DNA from: an uncultured Gammaproteobacteria bacterium
GTDB taxonomy: Bacteria; Patescibacteriota; Patescibacteriia; UBA1558; GWA2-36-10
Reading direction: 5' to 3'
Assembly: GCA_964638415.1 (NCBI GenBank)
Contig: CAZWYP010000006.1
Coordinates: 2,244 to 66,243 of the forward strand
Length of the DNA: 64,000 nucleotides
Below are positions 3,362 to 41,789 of this stretch, in pieces; the first letter of the stretch is position 1; each line of letters begins with the position of its first letter. Below the pieces are notes generated by a model. That model made no database searches, had not been told where the DNA came from, and saw only the letters and a list, made by a program, of their open reading frames with translations. Both the position numbers and the translations under genes were made by a program.

Positions 3362-4837
3362 TTATTTACTTTTTGGCCTCATAGTTGGGAAGAAAATTAC
3401 TTCCTTGATATTCTCCACATTGCCTAAGAGCATAATTAGTCTATCAATACCGATGCCTAAACCGGCCGTAGGCGGCATGCCGTGCTTTAAGGCTTCCACG
3501 AATTCATCATCTGCTCCCTGCGCTTCCTCATCCCCTTTTTTCGCCAAAGCTTTTTGCTCGGCAAAGCGCTCCGCCTGATCCAAAGGATCATTAAGCTCGG
3601 AAAAAGCATTACAGACTTCCGCGGTATTCACTACCAATTGGAAGCGCTCTACATAATTAGGACGATCAGCTATTTTTTTGGCTAAAGGAGAAATTTCAAT
3701 GGGATGATTAATTAAGAAAGTCGGCTGGATAATCTGCGGGCGAATAACTTTTTTATACAACTCATCTAATAATTTACCCCTACCCCAGCTTTTATCTGTC
3801 TTTAAACTCTGCTTTTTAGCCAAAACCATTAAATCTTTATCTGACAGCTTATCTATATCCACCTGGTAATATTTGGTGAATAAATCCTTAAAATCTACCC
3901 GGGGATAAGGATCTTTAAAATTTAAAGTATGCTCTCCGCTTTTTACCTCATAGCTGCCGGTAACAGCTTTAGCTAAAGCTGCCATGAATTTCTCCACAAA
4001 CTCCATCAGTCCCTCATAATCCTGGTAAGCCCAATATGCTTCAATCTGGGTAAATTCCGGATTATGCTGGTGGTCAATGCCTTCATTGCGGAAACAGCGG
4101 GCAATTTCATACACTTTCTCGTAACCGCCAATAATTAATCTTTTAAGATACAATTCCGGGGCAACGCGCAAGTATAGATCTATATCCAAAGCATTATGGT
4201 GGGTTTGGAAAGGCTGAGCAGTTGCACCAGAAGCCACTGCCTGCAGCATTGGCGTATCCACTTCCACAAAGCCAGCTTGGTTATAGTATTGCCGGATAAA
4301 GTCAATTACTTTGCTGCGCAACAGGAAAATATTCTTTACTTCGGGATTAGCCAGCAAATCCAAATATCTTTTTCTAAACCTTAAATCCTGATCTGCCAAG
4401 CCGGAATGTTTATCTGGTAAAGGCAATAGAGCTTTAGCTAGCATCATAACTTGGGAAGCTAAAATGGTCGGCTCGGCAGTTTTAGTCACAAAAGCTTGTC
4501 CGGTAATCTGAATGAAATCCCCTAAGTCAAAATTATCCTTGAAATTTTGGTAAGCTTCTTCGCCTAAATTATCTTTGCGGATAAAGCCCTGCACTTTGCC
4601 AGACTCATCTTCAAAATGCAGAAAGCAGGAACCACCCTGCAAGCGCAAGGAACGAATGCGTCCGGCTAGCACCACGGTTTGCTGGCTCGTAACCAAAGAC
4701 TTGAATTCAGCTAGAAAATCGCCAATAGTTTTATTTCTCTGGCTATTAGCTGGATAAGCAGCAACACCAGCTTTAGCCAATTGCTTTAGCTTTTTTAACC
4801 GCTGCTGGTATTCATCGTTAATATTGTATTCTGTCAT
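3362..4837 (-). CDS. lysS: lysyl-tRNA synthetase, class II
   Basis: 491 aa. OB-fold anticodon-binding N-terminus. Class II motifs (FRNEGID, GGLGIGIDRL). Confidence 0.9.
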   Translation of the reverse strand: MTEYNINDEYQQRLKKLKQLAKAGVAAYPANSQRNKTIGDFLAEFKSLVTSQQTVVLAGRIRSLRLQGGSCFLHFEDESGKVQGFIRKDNLGEEAYQNFKDNFDLGDFIQITGQAFVTKTAEPTILASQVMMLAKALLPLPDKHSGLADQDLRFRKRYLDLLANPEVKNIFLLRSKVIDFIRQYYNQAGFVEVDTPMLQAVASGATAQPFQTHHNALDIDLYLRVAPELYLKRLIIGGYEKVYEIARCFRNEGIDHQHNPEFTQIEAYWAYQDYEGLMEFVEKFMAALAKAVTGSYEVKSGEHTLNFKDPYPRVDFKDLFTKYYQVDIDKLSDKDLMVLAKKQSLKTDKSWGRGKLLDELYKKVIRPQIIQPTFLINHPIEISPLAKKIADRPNYVERFQLVVNTAEVCNAFSELNDPLDQAERFAEQKALAKKGDEEAQGADDEFVEALKHGMPPTAGLGIGIDRLIMLLGNVENIKEVIFFPTMRPKSK

Positions 4838-4927: not shown

Positions 4928-4956
4928 TTGACAAAATAATTAAAATATGATAGATT
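4928..4956 (+). promoter_or_regulatory. putative sigma70-type promoter (TTGACA-17-TAGATT)
   Basis: Perfect -35 TTGACA at 4928-4933. 17-nt spacer. TAGATT at 4951-4956. Lies upstream of the 5016 start. Confidence 0.35.
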
Positions 4957-5015
4957 ATATTGCTTTGCGTCCTTTGTCAACTTGTCTTGTTTCACCAAGA
5001 AAAGGGAGTCTTTCC

Positions 5016-6629
5016 ATGTTTCGTTTCATTTTCGTGGTTTTGTTTGCCTGCCTGGCAACCATATCCATATCTTCCGCTGAAGTCATTGACAACAACGTTG
5101 TCTGCCAATTGCCCAACTCGTCCTCCTTGGACGATACTTTGGATCAGCAAGTCATGGCCTTTGACGTATTAGTCGGCGACTACGACGATCAGGACAGTAC
5201 AGTTTATGTGGCTTGGACATCATTTCAAGGCGACAACGACCAAACTGTCGTTGCGGCTTACCGAAATGGTGAGGAACTTTGGCGCACAATAGTACCTTTC
5301 CCCGGCGATGCTTATCCCATCGCCGTCAAAATGGTTGGAGGAAGGGTTATTGTTTGTAGCCAAACCGTTTCATCAAACCCATTCGAGACACAACTGTCAA
5401 TCGCGGCAATTGCCAATTTCAATGGTGGCTTTCTGTATTACGGACACGTTACGCCAAGTTATTCCGCTAGTTTGCCATGGCAATTCGAAATGTACACTGC
5501 TCCAAATGATTTATTAATAGACACAGCCGTTGTGATCTGGCATGTGCAAGGAAGCGGATCTTCGTATTTCCAACGCGTCAATGTAGCTGAAAATCCACCC
5601 ACTCTTTTTGACGGCGATGGAACTGCTTTCCCGAATGGCTGTTATGTCAACTCCGACGCCGCCTGGCAAGGTGGGCGCTGGTGGTTTTCCGACTGCGGTA
5701 CAACTATGTACTCAATTAGTCCTACCGAGGGTTTAGTCGGAATAGACACTACTTCTTCCAACTACTGGACTATGTTCAGTGGCAGCGAAGATTCTCTGTG
5801 GGGAGTAACCTTTAATAACGGAATGGTCCTAGAGCACCTGTCAACTTCCGGTGAAGTAAACCCGATAGACACCCGTGTCTTACTCAGTTTACACACAGAT
5901 CCCGATTGGTCATTTCGCATGTCCCACGAACGATTTATTACCGGTGGACGATTCTTGACGACGAGCATGATTGAAGACACGCCATGGCCGTGGTATCACG
6001 TTTCCGTAGGTTGGTATGATTTGGAAACTGGTGGAAATTGGGGCTTTAGTCTACCAACTTACAATCCCCCCATCTCACATGCCGGCGCCATTTCGGACCA
6101 CATGATCGGCCTGATTACAGCTGGCCAAACCACTGTTCGTTTCGACGCTTGGGATATTTTAGACAGCGCTTATACCATCAGCGTTGATTCCATCGGTCCG
6201 CACCAAGATGGTTGGGGCGGCTGGTCAAGAATTTTCCCAGACGGTCACGGTGGGGCTGAGCTATTCTGGACTACTGCCGAAGGCATGGGGCCGGGCACGT
6301 TATATCATTATCACGTCACAAACGTGCAATCGACAAACAACCCAATTCAGACGAACATTCCTATAGACATGTCGCTCGGCCAGAACTACCCCAACCCGTT
6401 CAATCCGACGACGACCATTCCGTTCAACCTGCATCGCGCCGGTCCGGTAACACTGAAAGTATTCAATATTACCGGGCAGTTGGTTGCTACCGTGCTGAAC
6501 AACCAGGTGATGTCGGCCGGACAGCAGCAAGTTAATTTTGACGGCTCGCAGCTGTCCAGCGGCGTTTACGTCTATACCATTTCCAGCGGCAACTTCCAAG
6601 CTGCTCAGAAGATGGTCCTGATGAAATAA
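5016..6629 (+). CDS. secreted protein with T9SS-type (Por) C-terminal sorting domain
   Basis: Start reassigned to the internal Met (MFRFIFVVLFACLATISISSA signal peptide) preceded by a strong SD AAGGGAG 7 nt upstream. C-terminus NYPNPFNPTTTIPF...VYVYTI matches the TIGR04183/Por_Secre_tail motif. Coding GC is visibly higher than that of flanking genes. Confidence 0.7.
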   Translation: MFRFIFVVLFACLATISISSAEVIDNNVVCQLPNSSSLDDTLDQQVMAFDVLVGDYDDQDSTVYVAWTSFQGDNDQTVVAAYRNGEELWRTIVPFPGDAYPIAVKMVGGRVIVCSQTVSSNPFETQLSIAAIANFNGGFLYYGHVTPSYSASLPWQFEMYTAPNDLLIDTAVVIWHVQGSGSSYFQRVNVAENPPTLFDGDGTAFPNGCYVNSDAAWQGGRWWFSDCGTTMYSISPTEGLVGIDTTSSNYWTMFSGSEDSLWGVTFNNGMVLEHLSTSGEVNPIDTRVLLSLHTDPDWSFRMSHERFITGGRFLTTSMIEDTPWPWYHVSVGWYDLETGGNWGFSLPTYNPPISHAGAISDHMIGLITAGQTTVRFDAWDILDSAYTISVDSIGPHQDGWGGWSRIFPDGHGGAELFWTTAEGMGPGTLYHYHVTNVQSTNNPIQTNIPIDMSLGQNYPNPFNPTTTIPFNLHRAGPVTLKVFNITGQLVATVLNNQVMSAGQQQVNFDGSQLSSGVYVYTISSGNFQAAQKMVLMK

Positions 6630-10562: not shown

Positions 10563-11642
10563 TTATAAAATTTCTGCTAATTTTCTGGCTTGGCTTGGCG
10601 CTTGGATAAATTCCTGACTGCGATCATAAACGGCAGCAGCCAATCTTGTTGACAATTCATTATCCGTTAATAACCTCTCTAAAGCCAAAGCTATGGCTTT
10701 AACATCTTCTGCTACCAACAAAGCATTAACTTCATTAATCAGCCATTCGCTGGCTCCTCCGCTTTGGCCGGCAATAATCGGCAGTTTAGCCTGAGCCGCT
10801 TCTGCAAAGACAATACCAAAGCCTTCAGCATCAAATTGGCTTGAGCGGTGCGGCAAAATAAAAATATCCGCGAGGTTATAATAACCTATCAGCTCATTAT
10901 CTTCAACCCGGTTAATAATCCTCACCTTATCCGTCAACTGCTCCTGCTTAATAAGCTTAAGCAGATTGTTTTGCTCTTCTCCTTGCCCCACAATTAAATA
11001 CTGCACTGGATATTTTCTTAACTGAGCTAAAGCTTTAATTACCAGATCATGCCCCTTGCGGAAAGCTAGGCGTCCCACCGTGAGTAAGATTTTTTCTCCT
11101 ACAGCAATATTTAATTCCTGCCTTAATTTAGTTAACTTATTTTCATCAGTGTTTCCTAACGGATCAATACTAGGATAGAACAGTTTTATTTTCTCTTCAG
11201 GCAGCTTCAAATCAGCCAAAGACTGCTGGGTATCTAAGCTGTTAACTAGAATATACTTGGCGTTTCCCAAAATCTTTTTAGTTAGCGCTGGCTTGTTTTT
11301 TAAGGCCAGCTTAATATCCAAACCATGCAGGGAAATAATATACGGAACTTTAAGAAAATAAGCTAAGGAACCTAAAGGTAAAATATTGGGAGTAAATATC
11401 TGTTCAATCTTATTCTCTTTAATTATTCTCTTCAATTTAAAATAACTAAATAACCAAGTTGGCCTAATGAAGTTATTTTTCAATTTCAATTTAATCACCT
11501 GCTTATTAGCCTTCACTTCCGGATGGTCGGTTGCCACCAGATAATCTTCCAAGGGAAAAAACTTAAAGAGATTATAAACATAGCGGGCTACGCCGCCCTT
11601 AAAAGGAAAATATTCATGGGTTAAGACTAAAGTCTTTTTCAT
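10563..11642 (-). CDS. glycosyltransferase family 4
   Basis: 359 aa. GT4 EX7E-like region (FGIVFAEAAQAKLPIIAG). Confidence 0.75.
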   Translation of the reverse strand: MKKTLVLTHEYFPFKGGVARYVYNLFKFFPLEDYLVATDHPEVKANKQVIKLKLKNNFIRPTWLFSYFKLKRIIKENKIEQIFTPNILPLGSLAYFLKVPYIISLHGLDIKLALKNKPALTKKILGNAKYILVNSLDTQQSLADLKLPEEKIKLFYPSIDPLGNTDENKLTKLRQELNIAVGEKILLTVGRLAFRKGHDLVIKALAQLRKYPVQYLIVGQGEEQNNLLKLIKQEQLTDKVRIINRVEDNELIGYYNLADIFILPHRSSQFDAEGFGIVFAEAAQAKLPIIAGQSGGASEWLINEVNALLVAEDVKAIALALERLLTDNELSTRLAAAVYDRSQEFIQAPSQARKLAEIL

Positions 11643-24576: not shown

Positions 24577-25446
24577 ATGGCAGTAAAAAAGGCTATCAAG
24601 GCCAAAAAAGCCACTACTTCTAAAACCCAAGCTCTCCAGCTAGATAAATTGCTAGCAGCAGCACTTAAGGTAAAAGCTACCAGCATTCATTTAGAGCGCC
24701 ATAGCGAACAAGCCAAGGTTAGATACCGAGTAATGAATGAATTAAAATCGGGAGAGAAGATTTCTTTGGATTCCTTTCTGGCTTTAAGCCAAAAGCTTAA
24801 AGCTTTGGCTAATGTTGATCCCACCGCTAATACTCCCCAGGAAGGACGCTTTAGGGCTCGCTCCGGAGAGCAAGAATTACAGCTAGGTACTGCTTTCTGG
24901 CCAATGTATGAAGGAGAAAAGATTATTATTAAAATTCTGGACGATAAATCAGCTAAACTATCTACTTTATTGCTGACTGAGGAAGATTTCCATAAAATAT
25001 CTTCTGCGCTGCAAGATAAATCGGGCTTAATCCTACTGACAGAAATGAAATTAACAGAAAAAAACCGCCTGCTATATGCCCTACTTAATGAGCTTAATCG
25101 GGAAGCCTTGGATATCTTCACTCTAGAAGACTTTATCGAATACCCCCTGCCGGGTATTCATCAGCAGCAATTGGAAAACTTTGAAGATAATAAATTAAGT
25201 AATACTTTAGCTAAACTGCTTAGGCATGAACCGGATGTGGTGATGATTTCCAAGATTACTGGTCCGGAAACTGCCAAGCAAATAGTCAATGCTGCCGCTC
25301 ATAATATTGTTCTTACCTATTTACCAGGCCGAAACTTAGAAGAAAGCATGCATTTTCTCAAAGCCTGGGGAATTGATGATTATATTCTAGAATCTGTCTT
25401 AAAATCAATTATTACCCAAGCAGATAATAAATTTAAAATAATCTAA
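24577..25446 (+). CDS. degenerate PilB/GspE/PilT-like secretion ATPase homologue (pseudo-ATPase)
   Basis: 289 aa. It aligns to the N2 domain and ATPase core of T2SS/T4P ATPases: PQEGRF..GEKIIIKIL vs PQDGRf..GEkvvlRiL, the Asp box TLEDFIEY, and LRHEPDVVM. The Walker A is replaced (GLILLTEMKLTEKN vs [14 protein letters not shown]). The Walker B Glu is lost (MISKITGPETA vs [11 protein letters not shown]). The His box is degenerate and the C-terminal subdomain is absent. Confidence 0.7.
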   Translation: MAVKKAIKAKKATTSKTQALQLDKLLAAALKVKATSIHLERHSEQAKVRYRVMNELKSGEKISLDSFLALSQKLKALANVDPTANTPQEGRFRARSGEQELQLGTAFWPMYEGEKIIIKILDDKSAKLSTLLLTEEDFHKISSALQDKSGLILLTEMKLTEKNRLLYALLNELNREALDIFTLEDFIEYPLPGIHQQQLENFEDNKLSNTLAKLLRHEPDVVMISKITGPETAKQIVNAAAHNIVLTYLPGRNLEESMHFLKAWGIDDYILESVLKSIITQADNKFKII

Positions 25447-34339: not shown

Positions 34340-36430
34340 TTAAGAAGCTACTTCCAATTGATAACCATTCTTATCATTACTGTCGCGCAGATAAAAACTA
34401 TTTTTTTCTACGCCGTCATAATTGTAAATTCGCAATAAAGCAGCTGATCCTTTATGCGGCAAAGTTAAAATCTCAGGAATGCCATCGCCAGATAAATCAC
34501 GCACCACCAATTCCACTCCTCCTTTATAATTAGCATTAAAGGCTAACCAATCATGTTTAAGCTTACCCTTATAGCTAAATAAGCGAATCTGAGTGGCTAA
34601 ATTACGACTGGGAGCGGTAACAATTTCCTGCCAACCGTCATTATTCACATCACCTACGCTTACCTCTACTCCCTGGTCAAAATTGTCATAAGCAACAAAC
34701 TGGCTGTATAAACGGTTGCGCCAGTCAAAAACCTTCACTTCACTTATTCGACCGGCTGCTGGCGCAGTAATGATCTCGTCTTTACCATCATTATTCACAT
34801 CGCCAAGAGCTAAATTTACTCCGCCATAATAATTTCCCTCATAAACGAAAAATTGGTTTTTTACCTGACCCTGCCAATTAAAAATCTTCAAATGCGGGCC
34901 ACCCTTACTTTCTGGGGCAGTAATAATTTCGTTTTGGCCATCGCCATCAATATCCCCGATGGCAATATTGACTCCGCCGGAAAACTTAGCATCATAAGCA
35001 AACCACTCGGATAATAATTCTCCAGCTAAGCTAAAAACTTTAAGATGCGGTCCGCCGCCGGCTTTGGGAGCAGTGATAATTTCCATTAAATCATCATTAT
35101 TCACATCACCGATAGCAATATTGACTCCACCTTTAAACTTTTCTGCATAAGCCAGAAAATTATCTAATTCATTTCCTTCCTGATCTAAAACAATAATTTG
35201 GGGAATTTGACCGCTGTCTGGAGCTATTACCAAATACTTTAATTCATCTTCCAATTGCGCGGCTAAATTAAGAGCCGCACCAATATCAATTAAGCCGGAG
35301 CCTAGAGCTGCATAGTTATCTGGATTAGCCGTTTTTAAGCTTTGAGAGCTCTGAGATAGAATATTATAAATATTATAAGGGCGCAGGTTGGGATAATGCA
35401 TTTTCAACAAACTGGCGGTGCCGGAAATTATCGGCGCAGCCACTGATGTTCCTGACCAGCCAGTTCCGTAATACGCTGTTAGTTTACTATCTCCAGTTTT
35501 TTGAAATAAAGTAGAATAAAAGTTAGCGCCGGGAGCGGAAAGATCAATACAGTTGCTGCCATGATTGGCAAAGGTAGCTAATTTTTTCTGATTATCAACC
35601 GCCGATACTCCCAACACCCGGTTAATCTCATCCAATTCACATACCGGGTAACGCGGAGTAACATTAAGATTCAATCCTTTGTTCTCTTCATTGCCGGAAG
35701 CTGCCACCACTACCACTCCCGCCTCATAAGCTTCCTTAATCGCTTGCTTAATAGTATTATCGTAAGACTTACCAACTAAGCTTAGATTAATAATATCCGC
35801 TCCATTCTCTACGGCATAATCAATAGCTTGGGACAAAACTAAAGTATTGCCCTGACCAAATTCATCCAAAATACGCAAAGGCATTATTTTAGCGTGGGGA
35901 GCAATGCCGACAATCCCGCTGTCATTAGCCGTTCCGGCCAAAATTCCCGCCACTACTGTACCATGATTAATTGACACTATATCGTATTCCCCAGAAACAT
36001 CTGGCTCTGGAACATTGTCGCTGTCAACAAAATCCCAGCCTACCACATCGTCAATATAGCTATTGCGATCATCATCAATGCCATTATCCGCTATTTCTCC
36101 GGCATTTAACCAAATATTATTAACTAAATCCGGATGATCCAAATCAACTCCGGAATCTAAGATAGCCACTACTACTTCTTTATTCACTTGCAAATCATTA
36201 GACCAGCTGGGCTTAATATTAATCAAATCAAAATACGTCTGGTAAACCAAGTTGGGATCCTGCGGAGTATAATCCTGTTTAAACCTGCTAACCGCAGAAA
36301 CTGTAGGCAATAAAAGCAATAAGCCAAGGGTTAAATTTAAAGAATATAATAACTTTTTTAACACGCCGTGGTTAATTAAATAATTAGGCCATAATTTGTC
36401 TAAATTATAACAAAAAACCCTGTTAATCAC
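34340..36430 (-). CDS. subtilisin-like serine peptidase (S8) with C-terminal FG-GAP repeat beta-propeller
   Basis: 696 aa. Catalytic triad motifs DSGVDLDHPDL, HGTVVAGI, GTSVAAP. C-terminus has 5-6 repeats of about 47 aa (GGVNIAIGDVNNDG..EIITAP..GGPHLKVF). Confidence 0.8.
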   Translation of the reverse strand: MINRVFCYNLDKLWPNYLINHGVLKKLLYSLNLTLGLLLLLPTVSAVSRFKQDYTPQDPNLVYQTYFDLINIKPSWSNDLQVNKEVVVAILDSGVDLDHPDLVNNIWLNAGEIADNGIDDDRNSYIDDVVGWDFVDSDNVPEPDVSGEYDIVSINHGTVVAGILAGTANDSGIVGIAPHAKIMPLRILDEFGQGNTLVLSQAIDYAVENGADIINLSLVGKSYDNTIKQAIKEAYEAGVVVVAASGNEENKGLNLNVTPRYPVCELDEINRVLGVSAVDNQKKLATFANHGSNCIDLSAPGANFYSTLFQKTGDSKLTAYYGTGWSGTSVAAPIISGTASLLKMHYPNLRPYNIYNILSQSSQSLKTANPDNYAALGSGLIDIGAALNLAAQLEDELKYLVIAPDSGQIPQIIVLDQEGNELDNFLAYAEKFKGGVNIAIGDVNNDDLMEIITAPKAGGGPHLKVFSLAGELLSEWFAYDAKFSGGVNIAIGDIDGDGQNEIITAPESKGGPHLKIFNWQGQVKNQFFVYEGNYYGGVNLALGDVNNDGKDEIITAPAAGRISEVKVFDWRNRLYSQFVAYDNFDQGVEVSVGDVNNDGWQEIVTAPSRNLATQIRLFSYKGKLKHDWLAFNANYKGGVELVVRDLSGDGIPEILTLPHKGSAALLRIYNYDGVEKNSFYLRDSNDKNGYQLEVAS

Positions 36431-37551: not shown

Positions 37552-38484
37552 TTAAATGGCAATAAAATACAAACCTAGACTAATTAAAATAATAGCAATC
37601 GCCTTCTGGATAATTACCGCTTTACTAATATTCTCTTTGACTATTTGCGGGAAAAACAAAGACAATAATGCGCCAAAGATCAGGAGAAAAGCATATTCCA
37701 CTCCCTGCAAAGCGCTCACTAAAGCCACTGAGGCTAAAGATACTGCATAATTCTGGAGCAAGAAACCGACAGCAGCAATTAATTGGTTAATTAAAAAAAT
37801 AATCCTCCCTTTTTGTTTTAAATTAAACAAACTTTTAAAAATCTTCTTCCGGTAATCATTCCTAATTAGCAAAAACAAGACGGCAATAAAACTGCCTAAA
37901 CGCATCCAGATAAAACCGCTAAAGAAGGGCTGATGGGTATAAAGATATTTAGTGCCGACAAAAAATAAGCCAAAAAACAAACCAGCACCCAAAGCAAACC
38001 AAATAGCCAAAACTTGGTTTTCCGCTTCCGGACGAAACCAAGCTTTAATCTTATCCCATAATTCATGAGAGTCAGGAAACCAAGAAATAATAATAGTACC
38101 TAAAAGCAATAAAATAATAGCTAGCCATTGGTAGAAAGTAAAAGACTCCTTCAGTAAAAAAATGGACAGAATTAAGATAAAAATAGGTATAGAGCCTCCC
38201 ATAATGGGAATGATCCGCGAAGCTTCGCCTAATTTTAAGGCTTTGTACATTAAAAGCAAAGCAATAGGAAACAAAGCGCCAACTAATAAATTAAGGCTAA
38301 AAACCGTCCAGCCGCTCCAGATTAGCCACCAGGGCGCCAATAGCCAGACTAATAAACCCAATATTCCTACGAGAAAAGTATAAGCATGGTGATTAGGTAA
38401 GAATTTCTGCAGTAAAAACTTATCAGTCAAATTGACTAGAGCGAGAATAAAATAAGCAATAATAGCAATTAATAACCAAGACAT
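37552..38484 (-). CDS. EamA/DMT-superfamily membrane transporter-like protein
   Basis: 310 aa with about 10 TM. GEASRIIPIMGGSIPIFILILSIFLLKE resembles the EamA motif. Confidence 0.45.
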   Translation of the reverse strand: MSWLLIAIIAYFILALVNLTDKFLLQKFLPNHHAYTFLVGILGLLVWLLAPWWLIWSGWTVFSLNLLVGALFPIALLLMYKALKLGEASRIIPIMGGSIPIFILILSIFLLKESFTFYQWLAIILLLLGTIIISWFPDSHELWDKIKAWFRPEAENQVLAIWFALGAGLFFGLFFVGTKYLYTHQPFFSGFIWMRLGSFIAVLFLLIRNDYRKKIFKSLFNLKQKGRIIFLINQLIAAVGFLLQNYAVSLASVALVSALQGVEYAFLLIFGALLSLFFPQIVKENISKAVIIQKAIAIILISLGLYFIAI

Positions 38485-38500
38485 ATAAATATTATATTAT

Positions 38501-39616
38501 TTAATCTTGAATGCAGCGAACAGAGCCTGCATAAAAATCTCCAGAAATAGCACCTCGATAACGACCTACCGTAGCTAAAGCACTGCTAAAAGTCCGATAC
38601 CAAGCACTACTTAAGCCATATTTAGTAGAAGACCAAATCCAGCCTGTACCGTCTTGATACAAAAACATATATTCATAATTATCCCAAATTCCGCCTAAAA
38701 CATCATTAAATCCAGAGGAACCTCCTGCTTTTAATTTAGTGCCTTCATTGGTTCCTCGCCAACCAGTAGTAGTCGTGTCAATCGGAAAATCAGTAGTACA
38801 GCTGCCAGAAGTACAGACTGCTCTTTCTAAAGTAGTAAATTCATCATGAGTTGGAATATGCCAACCGGTTGGACAAATACCTTGAGCGCCATTAACTTCC
38901 GAGCCACACATCGCTTGTGGCCAGATGTAAATACCACCATCTGCTGTACAATTAGCTTCCGAATCATTATAGCAATACTTTTTAATAGCCGCTGCCGAAA
39001 CGCAACTGTAACCACCAGTACCCCCAGCTACCCTGGTGCCGACATTAAGATTCTGTGCAAACCAGCACTGCGTGCCAATCTGCACAGTTGCATAATTAAC
39101 CCCCTCGTAACTAACCGTATCACCACAAGCAAATCCACCACCACCTTCTTCTCCGGCACTAGCTGTATATTCATAACAATGTTCAACTACAAAACCGGCA
39201 TCGCTTACTCTGGTAATATAATAACCCGTATCATCACCCGTAGCATCAGGATCAATTGGCAATTCACCAATGTACGGCTCCATTAAAGAAGCTAGATCAA
39301 CTCTGGCAATATCCTGACCCAAAGTGGTGCAGGTAGCATTACCGGCAGTGGAACCCCCAGCAGAAACCAGCATATAAGGAGTATTAAGAGTTAAAGCGGC
39401 AATAGCTGCTGGCACTGTGCCATTATTATCTGCTACTAAGGTAGTTAAGCATTTTTCTAACTCATCACAATTCTTATCTCGTAAGGAGTTTTGTGCTTCG
39501 CCAAAACGTCGAGCTGGATCAACTGCAACAAAAACTACCGCCGCCAATACCCCAATAACGGCAATTACTAAAATGATTTCTATTAAAGTAAACCCTTTCT
39601 CTTTACTTAAAAACAT
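38501..39616 (-). CDS. type IV pilin-like protein with C-terminal Fib_succ_major (FISUMP) domain
   Basis: 371 aa. Class III signal plus N-methylation site KG/FTLIEIILVIAVIGVLAAV. C-terminal QCWFAQNLN...CPTGWHIPTHDEF...WSSTKYG...GSVRCIQD matches the TIGR02145 pattern. Confidence 0.7.
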   Translation of the reverse strand: MFLSKEKGFTLIEIILVIAVIGVLAAVVFVAVDPARRFGEAQNSLRDKNCDELEKCLTTLVADNNGTVPAAIAALTLNTPYMLVSAGGSTAGNATCTTLGQDIARVDLASLMEPYIGELPIDPDATGDDTGYYITRVSDAGFVVEHCYEYTASAGEEGGGGFACGDTVSYEGVNYATVQIGTQCWFAQNLNVGTRVAGGTGGYSCVSAAAIKKYCYNDSEANCTADGGIYIWPQAMCGSEVNGAQGICPTGWHIPTHDEFTTLERAVCTSGSCTTDFPIDTTTTGWRGTNEGTKLKAGGSSGFNDVLGGIWDNYEYMFLYQDGTGWIWSSTKYGLSSAWYRTFSSALATVGRYRGAISGDFYAGSVRCIQD

Positions 39617-39718
39617 GTAAAATTGTTGCTTATCAACATTTTTAAGTTAACTTTAGCATTATTTGTAAGTAATTATAACATTTTTAATCAAAAAATCCAA
39701 AAATAATATTAAGAGGAA

Positions 39719-39790: not shown

Positions 39791-40225
39791 ATGACTAGTT
39801 TAGGCCAATTTACCTGCCTTAATCCCCACTGTCCTGATCACCAAAAACCAGAACAAGGAAACATAACTTTATACACCTTTTACAGCCGGAAGCGAGTCCG
39901 CTTGTTACTCTGCCGTACTTGCGGCAAAACCTTCAGTGAACTGAAAGGGACGCCATTCTGGGGCACTAGACTGGATTGGAATACAATCGTTATCATTTAC
40001 CGTGGACTATTGTCTGGTGGGACCATTCGCGGCACAGCTAGAGACTACAATTTCTCCAAAAATACCATCAAGCGCTACCTAGATCTGCTTAATGACAATT
40101 TTCCTGCTGTGGAGAAATTACTAATTGACCAGCAGGTGATCTTACCTGGACAGCAGCAAATGCTCCTAGATCTAAAAAAACGCTTTCCTAGAACTGTTAA
40201 ATTAGCAGGCAAAAAAGCTCACTAG
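39791..40225 (+). mobile_element. IS1 InsA-like / transposase N-terminal zinc-ribbon + HTH protein (orphan, no DDE domain)
   Basis: 144 aa. C-x4-C...C-x2-C zinc ribbon (CLNPHCPD...CRTCGKTF) followed by an HTH (GTIRGTARDYNFSKNTIKRYL), as in IS1 InsA and IS1595 N-termini. Higher GC and a strong SD, unlike native genes. No downstream transposase catalytic ORF. Confidence 0.5.
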
Positions 40226-40242
40226 AACAGTGCTAATGGAAA

Positions 40243-40284
40243 TAAAAAACCCTGAACCAATTTGGACAGGGTTTTCTTCTTTTA
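40243..40284. terminator. bidirectional rho-independent terminator
   Basis: Hairpin aaccctg...cagggtt flanked by an A-run and ttttcttctttt. Shared by the plus-strand IS-like gene and the minus-strand Cys-rich ORF. Confidence 0.55.
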
Positions 40285-40285
40285 T

Positions 40286-40423
40286 TTAAGAGCAGCAGTC
40301 GCATCCATCGGCACAATTACAGCCTTCGCCGGAACAATTGCAGTCATTTTTACCGCAATTGCAACCCATTGAATCGCTGCAAGTACATGGATCATTGCCG
40401 CAATTTGGACAAACATCTCCCAT
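40286..40423 (-). CDS. metallothionein-like cysteine-rich small protein (45 aa)
   Basis: Not in the ORF track because it is under 60 aa. Minus-strand ATG to TAA gives MGDVCPNCGNDPCTCSDSMGCNCGKNDCNCSGEGCNCADGCDCCS. It has 13 Cys in 45 residues, arranged as CxC/CC clusters with no aromatic residues. Terminator immediately downstream. Confidence 0.5.
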   Translation of the reverse strand: MGDVCPNCGNDPCTCSDSMGCNCGKNDCNCSGEGCNCADGCDCCS

Positions 40424-40454
40424 GATTTGCAAATTAATAATTAACTATTTGTTA

Positions 40455-41789
40455 TTATAGACTATTAATAATTTCCCGCAAGGGCTGCATTAAACTGGAA
40501 GAGAATTCTCTATCAGTAATAGCCGATGAGGCCACAATAGCGTTATGTGGTTTATGCTTATCTCTCTGATATTTCCTGGGATAATGCGCTTCAATAGCAC
40601 CATTAGGTAAAACAAAAATATGATTGAGTTTCAATTCTTCAATTAACTGATCTGCATTATTGCTCTTTGGTCTAATCTTTAAATAATTTAAAATATTATT
40701 CAGCTGCCAACCAACTGCATCCCTATCCATGACAATTAAAAATCTGATGTTGAAAATCTTGAGTAATTCAATAAACAGCATCATATTCCCTTTGCCGTGG
40801 GTTTGCACCACCTTTATCTCCTGATCACCGCCATAATAACGATCAATTAAGCCGCGTAATAGGATTCTATCCGATACTCCTTCCACCAAAACTACGGTAT
40901 CGGCAAAAAACATTTCCAAATTATCCGCATCTAATTCCTGGATTAAGCGCTGGCCAAAATAATGACGTTTGGTCAAAGACAAACCAAAAGCTTCCGTACT
41001 CTTTTCGCTTTTTACCACTCTAATTACCTGCGGCAAGGTAATAGCTTTAATAAATAATGGAGAATGGGTAGTGAAGAATATCTGAGCACCACTGCTATTC
41101 TGCATCGCCCACAATAATTTCTTGATTAAAATAGGATGCAAATGAGTTTCTGGTTCGTCAATAATCACCAATTGGTATTCTGGATGGAAGATATAAAGCA
41201 AGATGGTAAAAACCCGGCGGAAGCCGGAACCTAGACGATCTAAGGTGACTTTCCTATCTGCTTCCTGCAGACCAGTTGTCTCATAATTAATATCTAGGGC
41301 ATTCTTGCCAGTAACTATCTTGGGAAAATGTTTAGCTAGATTCTGCTGAAACTCAGCCAAACTCTCCGGATATTTTCGCAGACTCTGCCAATCTTTCTTA
41401 ATCTGATCTAAATTATGAAAATCATTAGAAGTAAGGTGCTTAACTGTCTTTGCTAAATAATTAGCTAATTTTCCTTGGTAAGGCAATACTTTATTGCCAA
41501 AAATTAACTGCCGTTGCTTATTTTTTAACTGTAATAGGCCTTGGCTTAAAGGTAAATTAAATTGTTTCTGCTCTTCTTTGCTAAAATTCAACGCAATTTC
41601 AATATCTGCCTTGGGATAATCTAAAGCCTCACTGGTATCTTTCTTATTAAAAGCATAATCTATAGCATAAAGAATATTACTTTTGCCACAGTTGTTCTGA
41701 CCGATCAAAATACTAATCGGTAAACCAGTCAGTAAAATAGGCTTCTTGATGCTTTTGTAATAATTTATTTTTAGCTTGGCAATGCGCAT
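40455..41789 (-). CDS. OLD-family ATP-dependent endonuclease (AAA_21-type ATPase + TOPRIM)
   Basis: 444 aa. Walker A LIGQNNCGKSNILYAI (P2 Old/GajA-like GxNxxGKSN). Walker B LVIIDEPETHLHP. H-loop FFTTHSP. TOPRIM motifs VVLVEGVSDRILL and LIVMDRDA. Confidence 0.65.
   Translation of the reverse strand: MRIAKLKINYYKSIKKPILLTGLPISILIGQNNCGKSNILYAIDYAFNKKDTSEALDYPKADIEIALNFSKEEQKQFNLPLSQGLLQLKNKQRQLIFGNKVLPYQGKLANYLAKTVKHLTSNDFHNLDQIKKDWQSLRKYPESLAEFQQNLAKHFPKIVTGKNALDINYETTGLQEADRKVTLDRLGSGFRRVFTILLYIFHPEYQLVIIDEPETHLHPILIKKLLWAMQNSSGAQIFFTTHSPLFIKAITLPQVIRVVKSEKSTEAFGLSLTKRHYFGQRLIQELDADNLEMFFADTVVLVEGVSDRILLRGLIDRYYGGDQEIKVVQTHGKGNMMLFIELLKIFNIRFLIVMDRDAVGWQLNNILNYLKIRPKSNNADQLIEELKLNHIFVLPNGAIEAHYPRKYQRDKHKPHNAIVASSAITDREFSSSLMQPLREIINSL

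What the first reader, a model, noticed from the sequence alone, without database searches (positions are those of the whole stretch)
38501..39616. Type IV pilin-like N-terminus fused to a Fib_succ_major (FISUMP) domain
Seen in sequence. The canonical prepilin leader and N-methylated hydrophobic helix, MFLSKEKG/FTLIEIILVIAVIGVLAAVVFVAV (cleavage after Gly, with Glu at +5), is followed by a Cys/Gly-rich region. That region ends in motifs matching the Fibrobacter succinogenes major paralogous domain (TIGR02145): QCWFAQNLN, CPTGWHIPTHDEFTTLE, WIWSSTKYG...WYRTF, GSVRCIQD.

Established knowledge: FISUMP domains are extracellular modules of unknown function.

Inference: this would place a FISUMP module on a pilus or pseudopilus fibre as a surface-displayed adhesin or binding module. 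That is potentially relevant to host or prey attachment in an episymbiont. It also argues against the chance fusion of two ORFs, because the reading frame is continuous for 371 codons.
Basis: seen in the sequence. Interest (0 to 1): 0.55.

Follow-up and report, generated by a model that had tools for sequence, protein, structure and literature searches.

The report
Pilin carrying a lectin-like FISUMP module
This gene from an ultrasmall Patescibacteria (CPR) bacterium encodes a type IV pilin with a C-type-lectin-like FISUMP domain attached by a short glycine linker; it is probably a pilus-displayed binding module, and the design is real but already catalogued rather than new.

Summary
An intact 371-codon ORF lies at 38501-39616, on the minus strand.

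- **Domain calls:** The ORF scores above curated cut-offs for the prepilin motif (TIGR02532, PF07963) and for FISUMP (TIGR02145, PF09603).
- **Structure:** The AlphaFold2 model shows a complete pilin module (long helix plus beta-sheet, residues 9-150). A disordered EEGGGG linker and a confident FISUMP domain (164-371) follow.
- **Recurrence:** At least 25 of the 120 best database clusters share the architecture, nearly all from Patescibacteria.
- **Pilus link:** One homologue (39% identical) sits inside a PilB-PilC-pilins-PilM operon.
- **Prior knowledge:** Raynaud et al. 2021 list N_methyl + IPR011871 as the fifth commonest "modular pilin" architecture, so this is a new member of a known kind.

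Three further findings:

- **Discordant modules:** The nearest pilin modules (64-67% identical) carry a small Cys-rich domain instead. The nearest FISUMP modules (56-61%) are anchored by a transmembrane helix.
- **DGRs in relatives:** Some close FISUMP relatives are genuine DGR targets. This gene has neither template repeat nor reverse transcriptase.
- **Neighbours:** An EamA transporter and a membrane-anchored glycosidase follow immediately downstream. One other locus repeats this.

Ligand and filament assembly are untested.

The parts
38501..39616 (-). Whole ORF, 371 aa plus stop: prepilin leader, pilin module, Gly linker and FISUMP module
   Evidence: ORF list; domain scores above curated cut-offs; identical ORF in a second assembly
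39593..39616 (-). Class III (prepilin) leader peptide MFLSKEKG: 8 residues, basic, ending in Gly at -1
   Evidence: Read from the sequence; TIGR02532 and PF07963 matches cover residues 4-29
39524..39592 (-). Hydrophobic alpha1-N, FTLIEIILVIAVIGVLAAVVFVA, with Glu at mature position 5
   Evidence: Sequence; helix 11-31 in the model; aligns to Geobacter PilA, GspG and PilE alpha1
39167..39523 (-). Pilin globular module (aa 32-150): alpha1-C helix to residue 63, then beta-strands 80-84, 93-96, 101-107, 132-136 and 142-146; Cys50, 56, 96, 147
   Evidence: AlphaFold2 model. The family profile matches solved pilins over profile positions 11-159. It is 64-67% identical to P0019 and P0025 and 50% to P0123, pilins that lack FISUMP
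39128..39166 (-). Flexible linker TASAGEEGGGGFA (aa 151-163)
   Evidence: pLDDT below 50 for residues 150-161. The same EEGGG junction occurs in P0019 and P0025, where a different C-terminal module follows
38504..39127 (-). FISUMP / Fib_succ_major module (aa 164-371) with 10 Cys; all near-invariant family residues retained
   Evidence: TIGR02145 86.6 bits, PF09603 85.8 bits; pLDDT about 90; conserved columns; Foldseek match to phage proteins annotated as FISUMP, E 7e-9
38516..38680 (-). Variable C-terminal surface of FISUMP (aa ~313-367), equivalent to the DGR variable region of close relatives and the presumed ligand-contact region. It is not DGR-diversified here
   Evidence: Column entropy rises from about 0.7-1.5 to 1.8-2.25 bits. 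In L003, L005, L015 and L035 the last ~160-200 nt of the FISUMP gene is a VR with adenine-specific mismatches to a downstream TR. No TR or RT in the window
39658..39687 (-). Promoter-like site (includes TGTTATAAT) about 45 nt upstream of the start codon; a consensus match only
   Evidence: Pattern scan, number of sites not above shuffled expectation; sequence read
37552..38484 (-). EamA/DMT-family transporter, 16 nt downstream on the same strand; probably co-transcribed
   Evidence: PF00892 62.6 bits; spacing; no terminator-like site between the genes; a homologous EamA is adjacent to the pilin-FISUMP gene in L013
36559..37548 (-). Membrane-anchored clan GH-A-like glycoside hydrolase (N-terminal TM helix; VENEP and ELQAEPW motifs), 3 nt after EamA
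   Evidence: PF02449 34.9 bits plus GH10 and GH5 hits; sequence; a 40% identical homologue lies immediately downstream of the pilin-FISUMP gene in L013
39791..41789 (.). Lineage-specific segment upstream: TnsD-like zinc-ribbon/HTH ORF (39791-40225, +), Cys-rich 48-aa ORF (40286-40432, -) and OLD-family ATPase-TOPRIM (40455-41789, -). Together with the pilin gene it separates DUF6938 from EamA, which are adjacent in L083
   Evidence: Pfam; synteny comparison with L083; no flanking repeats found

Best explanation
The gene encodes a bimodular ('modular') type IV pilin of a Parcubacteria-type Patescibacteria bacterium.

Proposed mechanism, all inferred unless marked otherwise:
1. A prepilin peptidase removes the 8-residue leader after Gly8 and methylates Phe1.
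2. The hydrophobic alpha1 helix with Glu5 lets the small pilin module be taken up by the type IV pilus machinery into the filament. Because the subunit is bulky, it most likely enters as a low-abundance or tip-located subunit.
3. The C-terminal 208-residue FISUMP domain hangs off the pilin head on a flexible EEGGGG linker. It is disulfide-rich and C-type-lectin-like.
4. That domain acts as the binding module. It probably binds a glycan or another surface ligand on a host cell or substrate through its variable C-terminal face (about residues 313-367).

Shown here: the two domains, the linker, the recurrence of the architecture, the presence of one homologue in a T4P operon, and DGR diversification of the equivalent face in close relatives.

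Inferred: processing, incorporation into a filament, tip location, and the nature of the ligand.
For: - **Domain scores:** both are above curated cut-offs.
- **Model:** canonical pilin helix plus beta-sheet, a disordered linker and a confident FISUMP domain; mean pLDDT 82.
- **Pilin similarity:** the family profile hits solved pilins and GspG down to E 9e-13 over the whole pilin module.
- **Recurrence:** at least 25 of the 120 best clusters carry PF07963 + PF09603. Their names include 'FISUMP domain-containing protein [Patescibacteria / Paceibacterota]' and JGI's 'TIGR02145 family / prepilin-type N-terminal cleavage/methylation domain'. 31 of 122 retrieved proteins match both modules.
- **T4P operon:** in L002 the homologue P0023 (39% identical, 99% coverage) lies in this gene order: PilB (T2SSE, 431 bits), PilC (T2SSF), an unknown ORF, a prepilin, pilin-FISUMP, a prepilin, PilM, then two prepilins.
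- **Pilin clusters:** in my tally, 8-9 of 16 fusion loci hold further prepilin genes. In L013 one of these is a pilin-LamG lectin pilin.
- **Paralogues:** one MAG (RA.bin4) has at least 5 pilin-FISUMP paralogues.
- **FISUMP fold (literature):** Fib_succ_major and DUF1566 form the CLec2 C-type-lectin class of DGR targets (PMC5758913). Lcl-CTD/DUF1566 is C-type-lectin-like and binds glycosaminoglycans (PMC11162425).
- **FISUMP fold (this protein):** a weak Lcl_C hit here (E 0.0036) and a stronger one in P0010 (E 1.8e-5).
- **DGRs in relatives:** real DGRs diversify the last ~58 residues of FISUMP proteins that are 52% identical to this one.
- **Precedent:** S. sanguinis PilB and PilC are modular pilins that act as adhesin and lectin (PMC8179133, PMC9934059). 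Saccharibacteria PilX2 is a lectin-like minor pilin needed for efficient host binding (PMC11623550).
Against: - **No machinery in view:** the window has no other pilin and no PilC, PilD or PilM. Its only T2SSE-family ORF (24577-25446) has lost the Walker A motif. The rest of the genome is not available.
- **Mostly orphan genes:** most homologous fusion genes sit among housekeeping genes (L082, L085, L086). The link to pilus machinery therefore rests on one operon (L002) and on pilin clustering.
- **Non-filament use of the module:** the nearest FISUMP relatives are anchored by a plain N-terminal TM helix, so the module also works without a filament.
- **No experiment:** nothing is known experimentally about any pilin-FISUMP protein.
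Confidence: 0.55

Rival explanations
1. Surface-anchored lectin that uses the prepilin signal without forming a long pilus. The class III signal and the pilin module would only anchor the FISUMP domain at the membrane, or build a short pseudopilus-like stub. The protein would serve as a substrate- or ligand-capture module working with the co-transcribed EamA transporter and the membrane-anchored glycosidase. This resembles the archaeal 'bindosome', in which sugar-binding proteins carry class III signal peptides (from my own knowledge of Sulfolobus Bas/PibD).
For: - The gene is followed at 16 nt and 3 nt by EamA and a clan GH-A-like hydrolase with an N-terminal TM helix.
- The trio recurs in L013 as EamA, pilin-FISUMP, GH, with GH1 upstream. 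EamA and GH genes also lie within 10 kb in L083 and L084.
- The closest FISUMP modules (56-61% identical) are simply TM-anchored surface proteins.
- There is no T4P machinery in the window, and most fusion genes are orphan genes.
Against: - The EamA/GH neighbourhood is seen in only 2 (adjacent) plus 2 (nearby) of 16 fusion loci. It could be inherited synteny among related Parcubacteria rather than functional coupling.
- The pilin module is complete and canonical, with Glu5.
- A homologue lies inside a T4P operon.
- EamA/DMT transporters do not use binding proteins (established knowledge).
Confidence: 0.22
2. Major (body) pilin: every subunit of the filament carries a FISUMP domain, giving a lectin-coated fibre.
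For: - The N-terminal module resembles major pilins and GspG rather than specialised minor pilins. The best PDB matches are Geobacter PilA, GspG and PilE, and Glu5 is present.
- The flexible linker could let the module splay outwards. Raynaud et al. do not exclude a body location.
Against: - A 22-kDa module on a linker of about 13 residues on every subunit is sterically demanding.
- In L002 and L083 small (124-171 aa) prepilins that look like conventional major pilins are encoded alongside.
- Characterised modular pilins are minor pilins (PMC8179133, PMC11623550).
Confidence: 0.1
3. DGR-diversified receptor: the FISUMP C-terminus of this gene is hypermutated by a diversity-generating retroelement, as in close relatives.
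For: FISUMP genes in L003, L005, L015 and L035 have a downstream template repeat with 16-22 adenine-specific mismatches. L003, L005 and L035 also have an RT ORF with the GRYVDD motif. FISUMP is a recognised DGR target class.
Against: - There is no second copy of the gene's 3' end anywhere in the 64-kb window.
- No ORF carries an RT motif other than the subtilase.
- None of the pilin-FISUMP fusion genes in loci L002-L081 has a TR. L082-L087 were fetched later and were not scanned.
Confidence: 0.03
4. Assembly or annotation artefact: two separate genes (a pilin and a FISUMP protein) joined by a mis-assembly or sequencing error.
For: The two modules have discordant nearest relatives.
Against: - An identical ORF occurs in a second assembly.
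- Dozens of homologues have the same architecture and the same module boundary.
- The linker is conserved with P0019 and P0025.
- GC content is uniform across the two halves, 0.417 versus 0.432.
Confidence: 0.02

Closest known systems
Modular type IV pilins (Raynaud et al. 2021, PNAS, PMC8179133): architecture IPR012902 - IPR011871
   Same: Exactly this domain order: an N-terminal prepilin methylation motif plus pilin module, a short linker, then an effector domain that is not specific to pilus biology. The paper's InterPro survey counts 40 proteins with IPR012902 - IPR011871, the fifth commonest architecture. Its representative is from Candidatus Wolfebacteria, also a CPR lineage.
   Different: That paper lists the architecture only and calls the domain's function unclear. 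No pilin-FISUMP protein has been studied. That IPR011871 is the Fib_succ_major entry is from my memory of InterPro, not from a tool result.
Streptococcus sanguinis PilB (pilin + vWA) and PilC (pilin + ConA-like lectin)
   Same: A small pilin module carries a bulky binding module through a short linker. They are minor pilins with direct roles in adhesion and glycan binding (PMC8179133, PMC9934059).
   Different: The effector fold differs: vWA or ConA-like there, Cys-rich FISUMP (C-type-lectin-like) here. Those genes lie in the pil locus, whereas this one is an orphan gene next to a transporter and a glycosidase.
Saccharibacteria (Nanosynbacter lyticus TM7x) PilX1 / PilX2 lectin-like minor pilins (PMC11623550)
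   Same: Same superphylum. They are pilins with accessory C-terminal lectin-like domains. PilX2 is needed for efficient host binding, and sugars inhibit binding.
   Different: The modules are a beta-jelly-roll and a 7-bladed beta-propeller, not FISUMP. PilX1 and PilX2 lack a predicted canonical PilD signal, whereas this protein has a textbook one. Those genes sit in T4P loci.
DGR target proteins of class CLec2 (DUF1566 / DUF823 / Fib_succ_major; e.g. Legionella LdtA) and Legionella Lcl C-terminal domain
   Same: The same domain superfamily: a surface-exposed ligand-binding C-type-lectin-like module whose C-terminal face tolerates variation (PMC5758913, PMC11162425). Relatives 52% identical to this FISUMP are DGR targets.
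   Different: Those proteins are lipoproteins, or are TM- or collagen-stalk-anchored, not pilins. This gene has no TR or RT. Lcl-CTD lacks disulfides, whereas this domain has 10 Cys.
TM-anchored ~270-aa FISUMP proteins of Patescibacteria, Elusimicrobia and Peregrinibacteria (P0009, P0013, P0017, P0089 ...)
   Same: The closest relatives of the FISUMP half: 56-61% identical over residues 162-371, with the same Cys pattern.
   Different: They are anchored by a plain N-terminal hydrophobic helix with no GFTLIE motif and no pilin head.
P0019 / P0025 / P0123 pilins (221-234 aa)
   Same: The closest relatives of the pilin half: 64-67% identical (P0019, P0025) and 50% (P0123). They keep the four Cys (P0019, P0025) and the EEGGG junction.
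   Different: After the linker they carry a Cys-rich domain of about 60-70 residues (CGNGILEGxEVCD...) instead of FISUMP. That domain has no Pfam hit.

Membership tests
Type IV pilin / class III signal peptide protein (TIGR02532, PF07963) | Short hydrophilic leader ending in Gly, followed by about 21 hydrophobic residues with Glu at mature position 5 | tested here: met
   MFLSKEKG|FTLIEIILVIAVIGVLAAVVFVAV; TIGR02532 28.2 bits against a cut-off of 16.3; PF07963 28.9 bits against 21.2
Type IV pilin / class III signal peptide protein (TIGR02532, PF07963) | Pilin fold: extended N-terminal alpha1 helix packed on an antiparallel beta-sheet | tested here: met
   Model has helix 11-63 and strands between 80 and 146, pLDDT 64-89. 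The family profile aligns with solved PilE, PilA and GspG over profile positions 11-159. This is a prediction, not an experiment
Type IV pilin / class III signal peptide protein (TIGR02532, PF07963) | Cleavage and N-methylation by a prepilin peptidase, and polymerisation by a PilB/PilC machinery in the same genome | not testable with these tools
   Only one 64-kb window (66.5-kb contig) is available. No PilC, PilD or PilM was found in it, and its one T2SSE-like ORF lacks Walker A. A homologue (L002) does sit in a PilB-PilC-PilM operon
FISUMP / Fib_succ_major domain (TIGR02145, PF09603) | Profile score above the curated cut-off over the whole domain | tested here: met
   TIGR02145 86.6 bits against 41.65, profile positions 8-176 of 176; PF09603 85.8 bits against 33.9, profile 1-187 of 187
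FISUMP / Fib_succ_major domain (TIGR02145, PF09603) | Conserved cysteines and signature motifs (QCW, GxCPxGWHxP, W.SS, VRC) | tested here: met
   All invariant or near-invariant columns of alignment A1 are retained: C164, C184, C215, C223, C248, C368, W185, G251-W252-H253-P255, W328, S330, R367
Modular pilin sensu Raynaud et al. 2021 | [quoted passage not shown] | tested here: met
   Two separately scoring domains and a linker of about 13 residues with pLDDT below 50. The architecture is listed in the paper's Dataset S1
Modular pilin sensu Raynaud et al. 2021 | The module has a direct role in a pilus-mediated function (adhesion) | not testable with these tools
   Needs binding assays or genetics
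DGR variable protein (CLec2 class) | VR at the gene's 3' end paired with a nearby TR that differs at adenines, plus a DGR reverse transcriptase | tested here: not met
   No repeat of the 3' end in the window and no RT-motif ORF. The positive controls L003, L005, L015 and L035 were detected by the same script
Type II secretion pseudopilins (GspG TIGR01710, GspH TIGR01708) | Equivalog score above cut-off | tested here: not met
   GspH 31.1 bits against 80; GspG 26.2 bits against 88.85. The matches are limited to the N-terminal helix
C-type lectin-like fold (Lcl_C / DUF1566, PF07603) | Pfam score above the gathering threshold, or structural similarity to solved C-type-lectin-like domains | tested here: inconclusive

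The most novel reading that the evidence does not exclude
Two related readings are not excluded by my evidence.

(1) In Parcubacteria-type CPR bacteria, pilin-FISUMP proteins are exchangeable host- or substrate-recognition cassettes. A conserved pilin 'carrier' ends in a Gly-rich junction, and different effector modules (FISUMP, a small Cys-rich domain, LamG) are swapped onto it.

(2) In this lineage the lectin-pilin works as one unit with the co-transcribed surface glycosidase and EamA transporter. The unit would bind, cleave and import a host or environmental glycan. That would be a pilus- or bindosome-like nutrient-capture device, not merely an adhesin.
Probability: 0.15. Interest if true: 0.6.

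Novelty: new member of a known kind. Interest (0 to 1): 0.32.

Why it matters
All cultivated Patescibacteria depend on attaching to other cells, and type IV pili are among the few surface machines they nearly all keep. In Saccharibacteria, lectin-like minor pilins are now tied experimentally to host binding.

Pilin-FISUMP proteins are a recurrent, paralogue-rich equivalent in the much larger and uncultivated Parcubacteria side of the radiation. At least 5 copies occur in one MAG.

If the FISUMP module is the ligand-recognition head, these genes are candidate determinants of host range. Their variable C-terminal face, which DGRs diversify in TM-anchored relatives, would be the place to look for specificity.

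For this particular gene the result is mainly confirmatory. The annotation 'prepilin-type N-terminal domain + FISUMP' is right, and the design is already catalogued.

Tried and rejected
- **Foldseek against the PDB:** the full model gave no hit with E below 1, only noise such as HIV RT.
- **PDB sequence searches:** the sequence and profile searches found only pilins and no solved FISUMP.
- **BFVD (viral) fold search:** it returned only other FISUMP-annotated phage proteins, plus a non-significant C-type lectin hit.
- **DGR hypothesis for this gene:** rejected. There is no TR and no RT in the window.
- **IS or transposon boundaries:** I looked around the 38.5-41.8 kb segment and found only short AT-rich chance repeats.
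- **Compositional sign of horizontal transfer:** none. Gene GC is 0.426, the window is 0.396 and the neighbours range 0.356-0.437.
- **Context of the closest pilin-module relative:** the look-up for P0019 failed because the protein is not on record.
- **Homologue search with the N-module alone:** it returned only three proteins, so the module-swap picture rests on few sequences.
- **Regex screen for T2SSE Walker A:** it missed a degenerate T2SSE-like ORF that Pfam later found. That ORF lacks Walker A and cannot be counted as PilB.
- **EamA/GH neighbourhood as a general rule:** rejected. It is absent from L002, L082, L085, L086 and L087.
Full report
**1. Observation**

The coordinates 38501-39616 hold one uninterrupted ORF of 371 codons, on the minus strand. 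The plus-strand reading of the same span is full of stops.

The N-terminus reads MFLSKEKG|FTLIEIILVIAVIGVLAAVVFVAV. It has an 8-residue basic leader ending in Gly, Phe at +1 and Glu at +5.

Both domain calls clear their curated cut-offs:

| Model | Bits | Cut-off | Residues |
|---|---|---|---|
| TIGR02145 (FISUMP) | 86.6 | 41.65 | 172-371 |
| TIGR02532 (prepilin) | 28.2 | 16.3 | 7-28 |
| PF09603 | 85.8 | 33.9 | 178-370 |
| PF07963 | 28.9 | 21.2 | 4-29 |

A 23.9-kb contig assembled independently from run SRR10064596 carries the identical ORF with the same neighbours. The gene is the only ORF in the 64-kb window with a prepilin motif.

**2. Anatomy**

I built an AlphaFold2 model on a 46-sequence alignment. 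Mean pLDDT is 82.1 and pTM is 0.61. It shows three parts:

- **Pilin module.** A long alpha1 helix (residues 11-63, with a break at 32-33) is followed by five short strands between residues 80 and 146. This is the classical pilin 'lollipop'.
- **Linker.** Residues 150-161 (…TASAGEEGGGG…) have pLDDT below 50.
- **FISUMP domain.** Residues 164-371 are compact, with pLDDT about 90.

Only about 13 residues form a Gly-rich linker.

A profile of the family matches solved pilins and pseudopilins over the whole pilin module (Geobacter PilA 9e-13, GspG 2e-11, PilE 4e-8, up to profile position 159). It matches no solved FISUMP.

The protein has 14 Cys: four in the pilin head and ten in FISUMP. Six of the ten are invariant or nearly so in the family.

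**3. Organism**

DnaK from the window is at most 82% identical to anything in the database. Its best named relatives are Candidatus Komeilibacteria, Parcubacteria, Nomurabacteria and 'Patescibacteria group'.

The window also holds a mur/fts cluster, ribosomal genes and many glycosyltransferases. The source is therefore a Parcubacteria-type CPR bacterium. An episymbiotic lifestyle is assumed from the phylum, not shown.

**4. The fusion recurs and is linked to pili**

- Of the 120 best database clusters, at least 25 carry both PF07963 and PF09603. They are 34-41% identical to the query over about 99% of its length.
- Sources name them 'FISUMP domain-containing protein [Patescibacteria / Paceibacterota]', or 'TIGR02145 family / prepilin-type N-terminal cleavage/methylation domain'.
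- 31 of the 122 retrieved proteins match both modules by BLASTP.
- FISUMP itself is a very large family. The 50%-identity library gave 26,932 representatives at E up to 1e-3 (this count includes matches to the pilin N-terminus) and 995 at E up to 1e-30. Many are giant multi-repeat proteins, and fusions to pilins are a small minority.
- In species-representative genomes, 9 of the 80 best loci hold a fusion.

In L002 the homologue P0023 (39% identical, full length) sits in this gene order: PilB (T2SSE 431 bits + MshEN), PilC (T2SSF 189 bits), an unknown 475-aa ORF, a prepilin, pilin-FISUMP, a prepilin, PilM, then two prepilins. This is the strongest evidence that such proteins are pilus subunits.

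In my tally of the 16 fusion loci examined:

- About half hold further prepilin genes.
- Four hold a second pilin-FISUMP gene (L007, L023, L083, L087).
- L013 holds a pilin-LamG lectin pilin 3.6 kb away.

One MAG (RA.bin4, GCA_022710685.1) has at least five pilin-FISUMP paralogues on three contigs. Many fusion genes are nevertheless orphan genes among housekeeping genes (L082, L085, L086), as the window's gene is.

**5. What is known**

Raynaud et al. 2021 (PMC8179133) defined 'modular pilins' and showed that S. sanguinis PilB (pilin + vWA) is an adhesin. Their InterPro survey lists IPR012902 - IPR011871 with 40 proteins, the fifth commonest architecture. Its representative comes from Candidatus Wolfebacteria, and they call the function unclear. 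That IPR011871 is the Fib_succ_major entry is from my own memory of InterPro.

Wu et al. 2018 (PMC5758913) place Fib_succ_major, DUF1566 and DUF823 in one class of DGR targets with a C-type-lectin fold (CLec2). The solved Lcl C-terminal domain (DUF1566) is C-type-lectin-like and binds glycosaminoglycans (PMC11162425).

This protein gives a sub-threshold Lcl_C hit (E 0.0036), and relatives give stronger ones. In Saccharibacteria, lectin-like minor pilins with accessory C-terminal domains exist, and PilX2 is needed for efficient host binding (PMC11623550).

**6. DGR test**

My script compared the last 240 nt of every FISUMP gene with its own locus. It found four genuine cassettes:

| Locus | Mismatches at template adenines |
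|---|---|
| L003 | 19 of 20 |
| L005 | 16 of 19 |
| L015 | 22 of 25 |
| L035 | 21 of 22 |

L003, L005 and L035 also have RT ORFs with the GRYVDD motif. L003 and L005 are 52% identical to the query's FISUMP domain.

The variable region maps to about residues 313-371 of the query. There the column entropy in the family alignment rises to 1.8-2.25 bits, against 0.7-1.5 in the core. This marks the probable ligand-contact face.

The window gene itself has no second copy of its 3' end in 64 kb and no RT. None of the fusions in L002-L081 has a TR. L082-L087 were fetched later and were not scanned.

**7. Module discordance**

| Query module | Nearest relatives | Identity | What they carry instead |
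|---|---|---|---|
| Pilin (residues 1-153) | P0019, P0025, P0123 | 64-67% (P0019, P0025); 50% (P0123) | A Cys-rich module of about 60-70 residues with no Pfam hit |
| FISUMP (residues 162-371) | ~270-aa proteins P0009, P0013, P0017 | 56-61% | A plain TM helix anchor |
| Both (other fusions) | e.g. P0008, P0014, P0023 | 26-36% (pilin), 41-52% (FISUMP) | - |

P0019 and P0025 keep the four Cys and the EEGGG junction of the query.

The simplest reading is that effector modules are exchanged on pilin carriers at a Gly-rich junction. Unequal evolutionary rates could also contribute, and the sample is small.

**8. Neighbourhood**

- **Downstream.** On the same strand, an EamA/DMT transporter lies 16 nt away. 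A 329-aa clan GH-A-like hydrolase follows 3 nt after that, with an N-terminal TM helix and VENEP / ELQAEPW motifs. Next come a subtilase-FG-GAP protein, GtrA and glycosyltransferases. No terminator-like site separates the pilin gene from EamA.
- **L013.** The order is GH1, EamA (37% identical), pilin-FISUMP, GH (40% identical).
- **L083.** DUF6938 (60%), EamA (44%) and GH (51%) are contiguous, and two fusions lie 7-15 kb away.
- **L084.** GH1 and EamA lie about 9 kb away.
- **Window compared with L083.** The window has 3.3 kb between DUF6938 and EamA. This segment holds an OLD-family ATPase-TOPRIM, a Cys-rich 48-aa ORF, a TnsD-like zinc-ribbon ORF on the other strand, and the pilin gene. I found no flanking repeats and no GC anomaly.
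- **Elsewhere.** The EamA/GH association is absent from the other fusion loci. It is a lead, not a rule.

**9. Machinery in the window**

There is no PilC, PilD or PilM. The only T2SSE-family ORF is 24577-25446 (+), 289 aa, PF00437 143 bits. It has EMKLTEKNR where Walker A (GPTGSGKST) should be, and it is short. Whether this organism has a working T4P machine cannot be decided from the window.

**10. Verdict**

The most likely function is a modular, probably low-abundance or tip-located, type IV pilin that presents a C-type-lectin-like FISUMP head for ligand or host binding (confidence about 0.55).

The main rival is a membrane-anchored or stub-displayed lectin that works with the adjacent transporter and glycosidase (about 0.22). 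The architecture is already catalogued and named by pipelines, so novelty is 'new member of a known kind' and interest is modest.

The added value lies in four points: the operon evidence, the paralogue expansion, the module discordance at the conserved linker, and the DGR-defined variable face.

Noticed in passing
window 24577-25446 (+): A 289-aa T2SSE-family (PilB/GspE-like) ORF scores PF00437 143 bits, but its Walker A is replaced (…GLILLTEMKLTEKNRLL… instead of GPTGSGKST) and its C-terminus is truncated. It looks like a degenerate pseudo-ATPase. It stands alone next to the mraY/mur cluster, 13 kb from the pilin gene.
   Followed up: partly
L003 2338-3295 and RT near 4090; L005 9519-10698 and RT near 11509; L015 10556-11270; L035 2284-4267 and RT near 5039: Genuine DGR cassettes target the C-terminal ~58 residues of FISUMP proteins in Ca. 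Nomurabacteria, an uncultured bacterium, Bacteroidales and Ignavibacteria. Mismatches at template adenines are 16-22 of 19-25. RT ORFs with GRYVDD are present in three of the four loci.
   Followed up: partly
window 39791-41789: A 3.3-kb lineage-specific segment (which includes the pilin gene, 38501-39616) lies between DUF6938 and EamA; those two genes are adjacent in L083. The part upstream of the pilin gene holds an OLD-family ATPase-TOPRIM (defence-type nuclease), a 48-aa ORF with 14 Cys (CPNCGNDPCTCSDSMGCNCGKNDCNCSGEGCNCADGCDCCS, metallothionein-like, no Pfam hit) and a TnsD-like zinc-ribbon/HTH ORF on the opposite strand. No flanking repeats were found.
   Followed up: partly
window 4947-6629 (+): A 560-aa protein has a T9SS C-terminal sorting domain (Por_Secre_tail: PF18962 46.6 bits, TIGR04183 43.2 bits). 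This is unexpected in a Patescibacteria genome, a group thought to be monoderm and to lack T9SS.
   Followed up: no
P0019, P0025 (same 155.8-kb NCBI contig), P0123: Pilins 50-67% identical to the query's pilin module, two with the same EEGGG linker, end in a Cys-rich module of about 60-70 residues (CGNGILEGxEVCD…, reminiscent of Myxococcus-type Cys-rich repeats). The module has no Pfam hit. It appears to be an unannotated class of modular pilin.
   Followed up: partly
L012 2833-13137 (Ca. Magasanikiibacteriota JBAYUH010000006.1): A 1789-aa protein with three FISUMP domains and five fn3 domains is flanked on both sides by pairs of prepilin-like genes (611/207 aa and 604/210 aa). Here FISUMP is associated with pilin genes without being fused to one.
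   Followed up: no
L007, L008, L083 (Patescibacteria RA.bin4, GCA_022710685.1): At least five pilin-FISUMP paralogues occur in a single MAG, two of them in tandem, together with 483-aa and 566-aa prepilins of unknown C-terminal content.
   Followed up: partly
window 34340-36430 (-): A subtilase (Peptidase_S8) is fused to tandem FG-GAP repeats, with three 153-nt DNA repeats at 34752-35158. It is encoded just downstream of the pilin-EamA-GH string and is another probable surface protein.
   Followed up: no
L002, L006, L011, L021, L023, L025 record titles: Several MAGs that carry pilin-FISUMP genes and CPR-like low-GC loci are titled 'uncultured Gammaproteobacteria bacterium' in TPA assemblies. 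The gene content (for example the monoderm-type T4P operon in L002) suggests these labels may be wrong.
   Followed up: no
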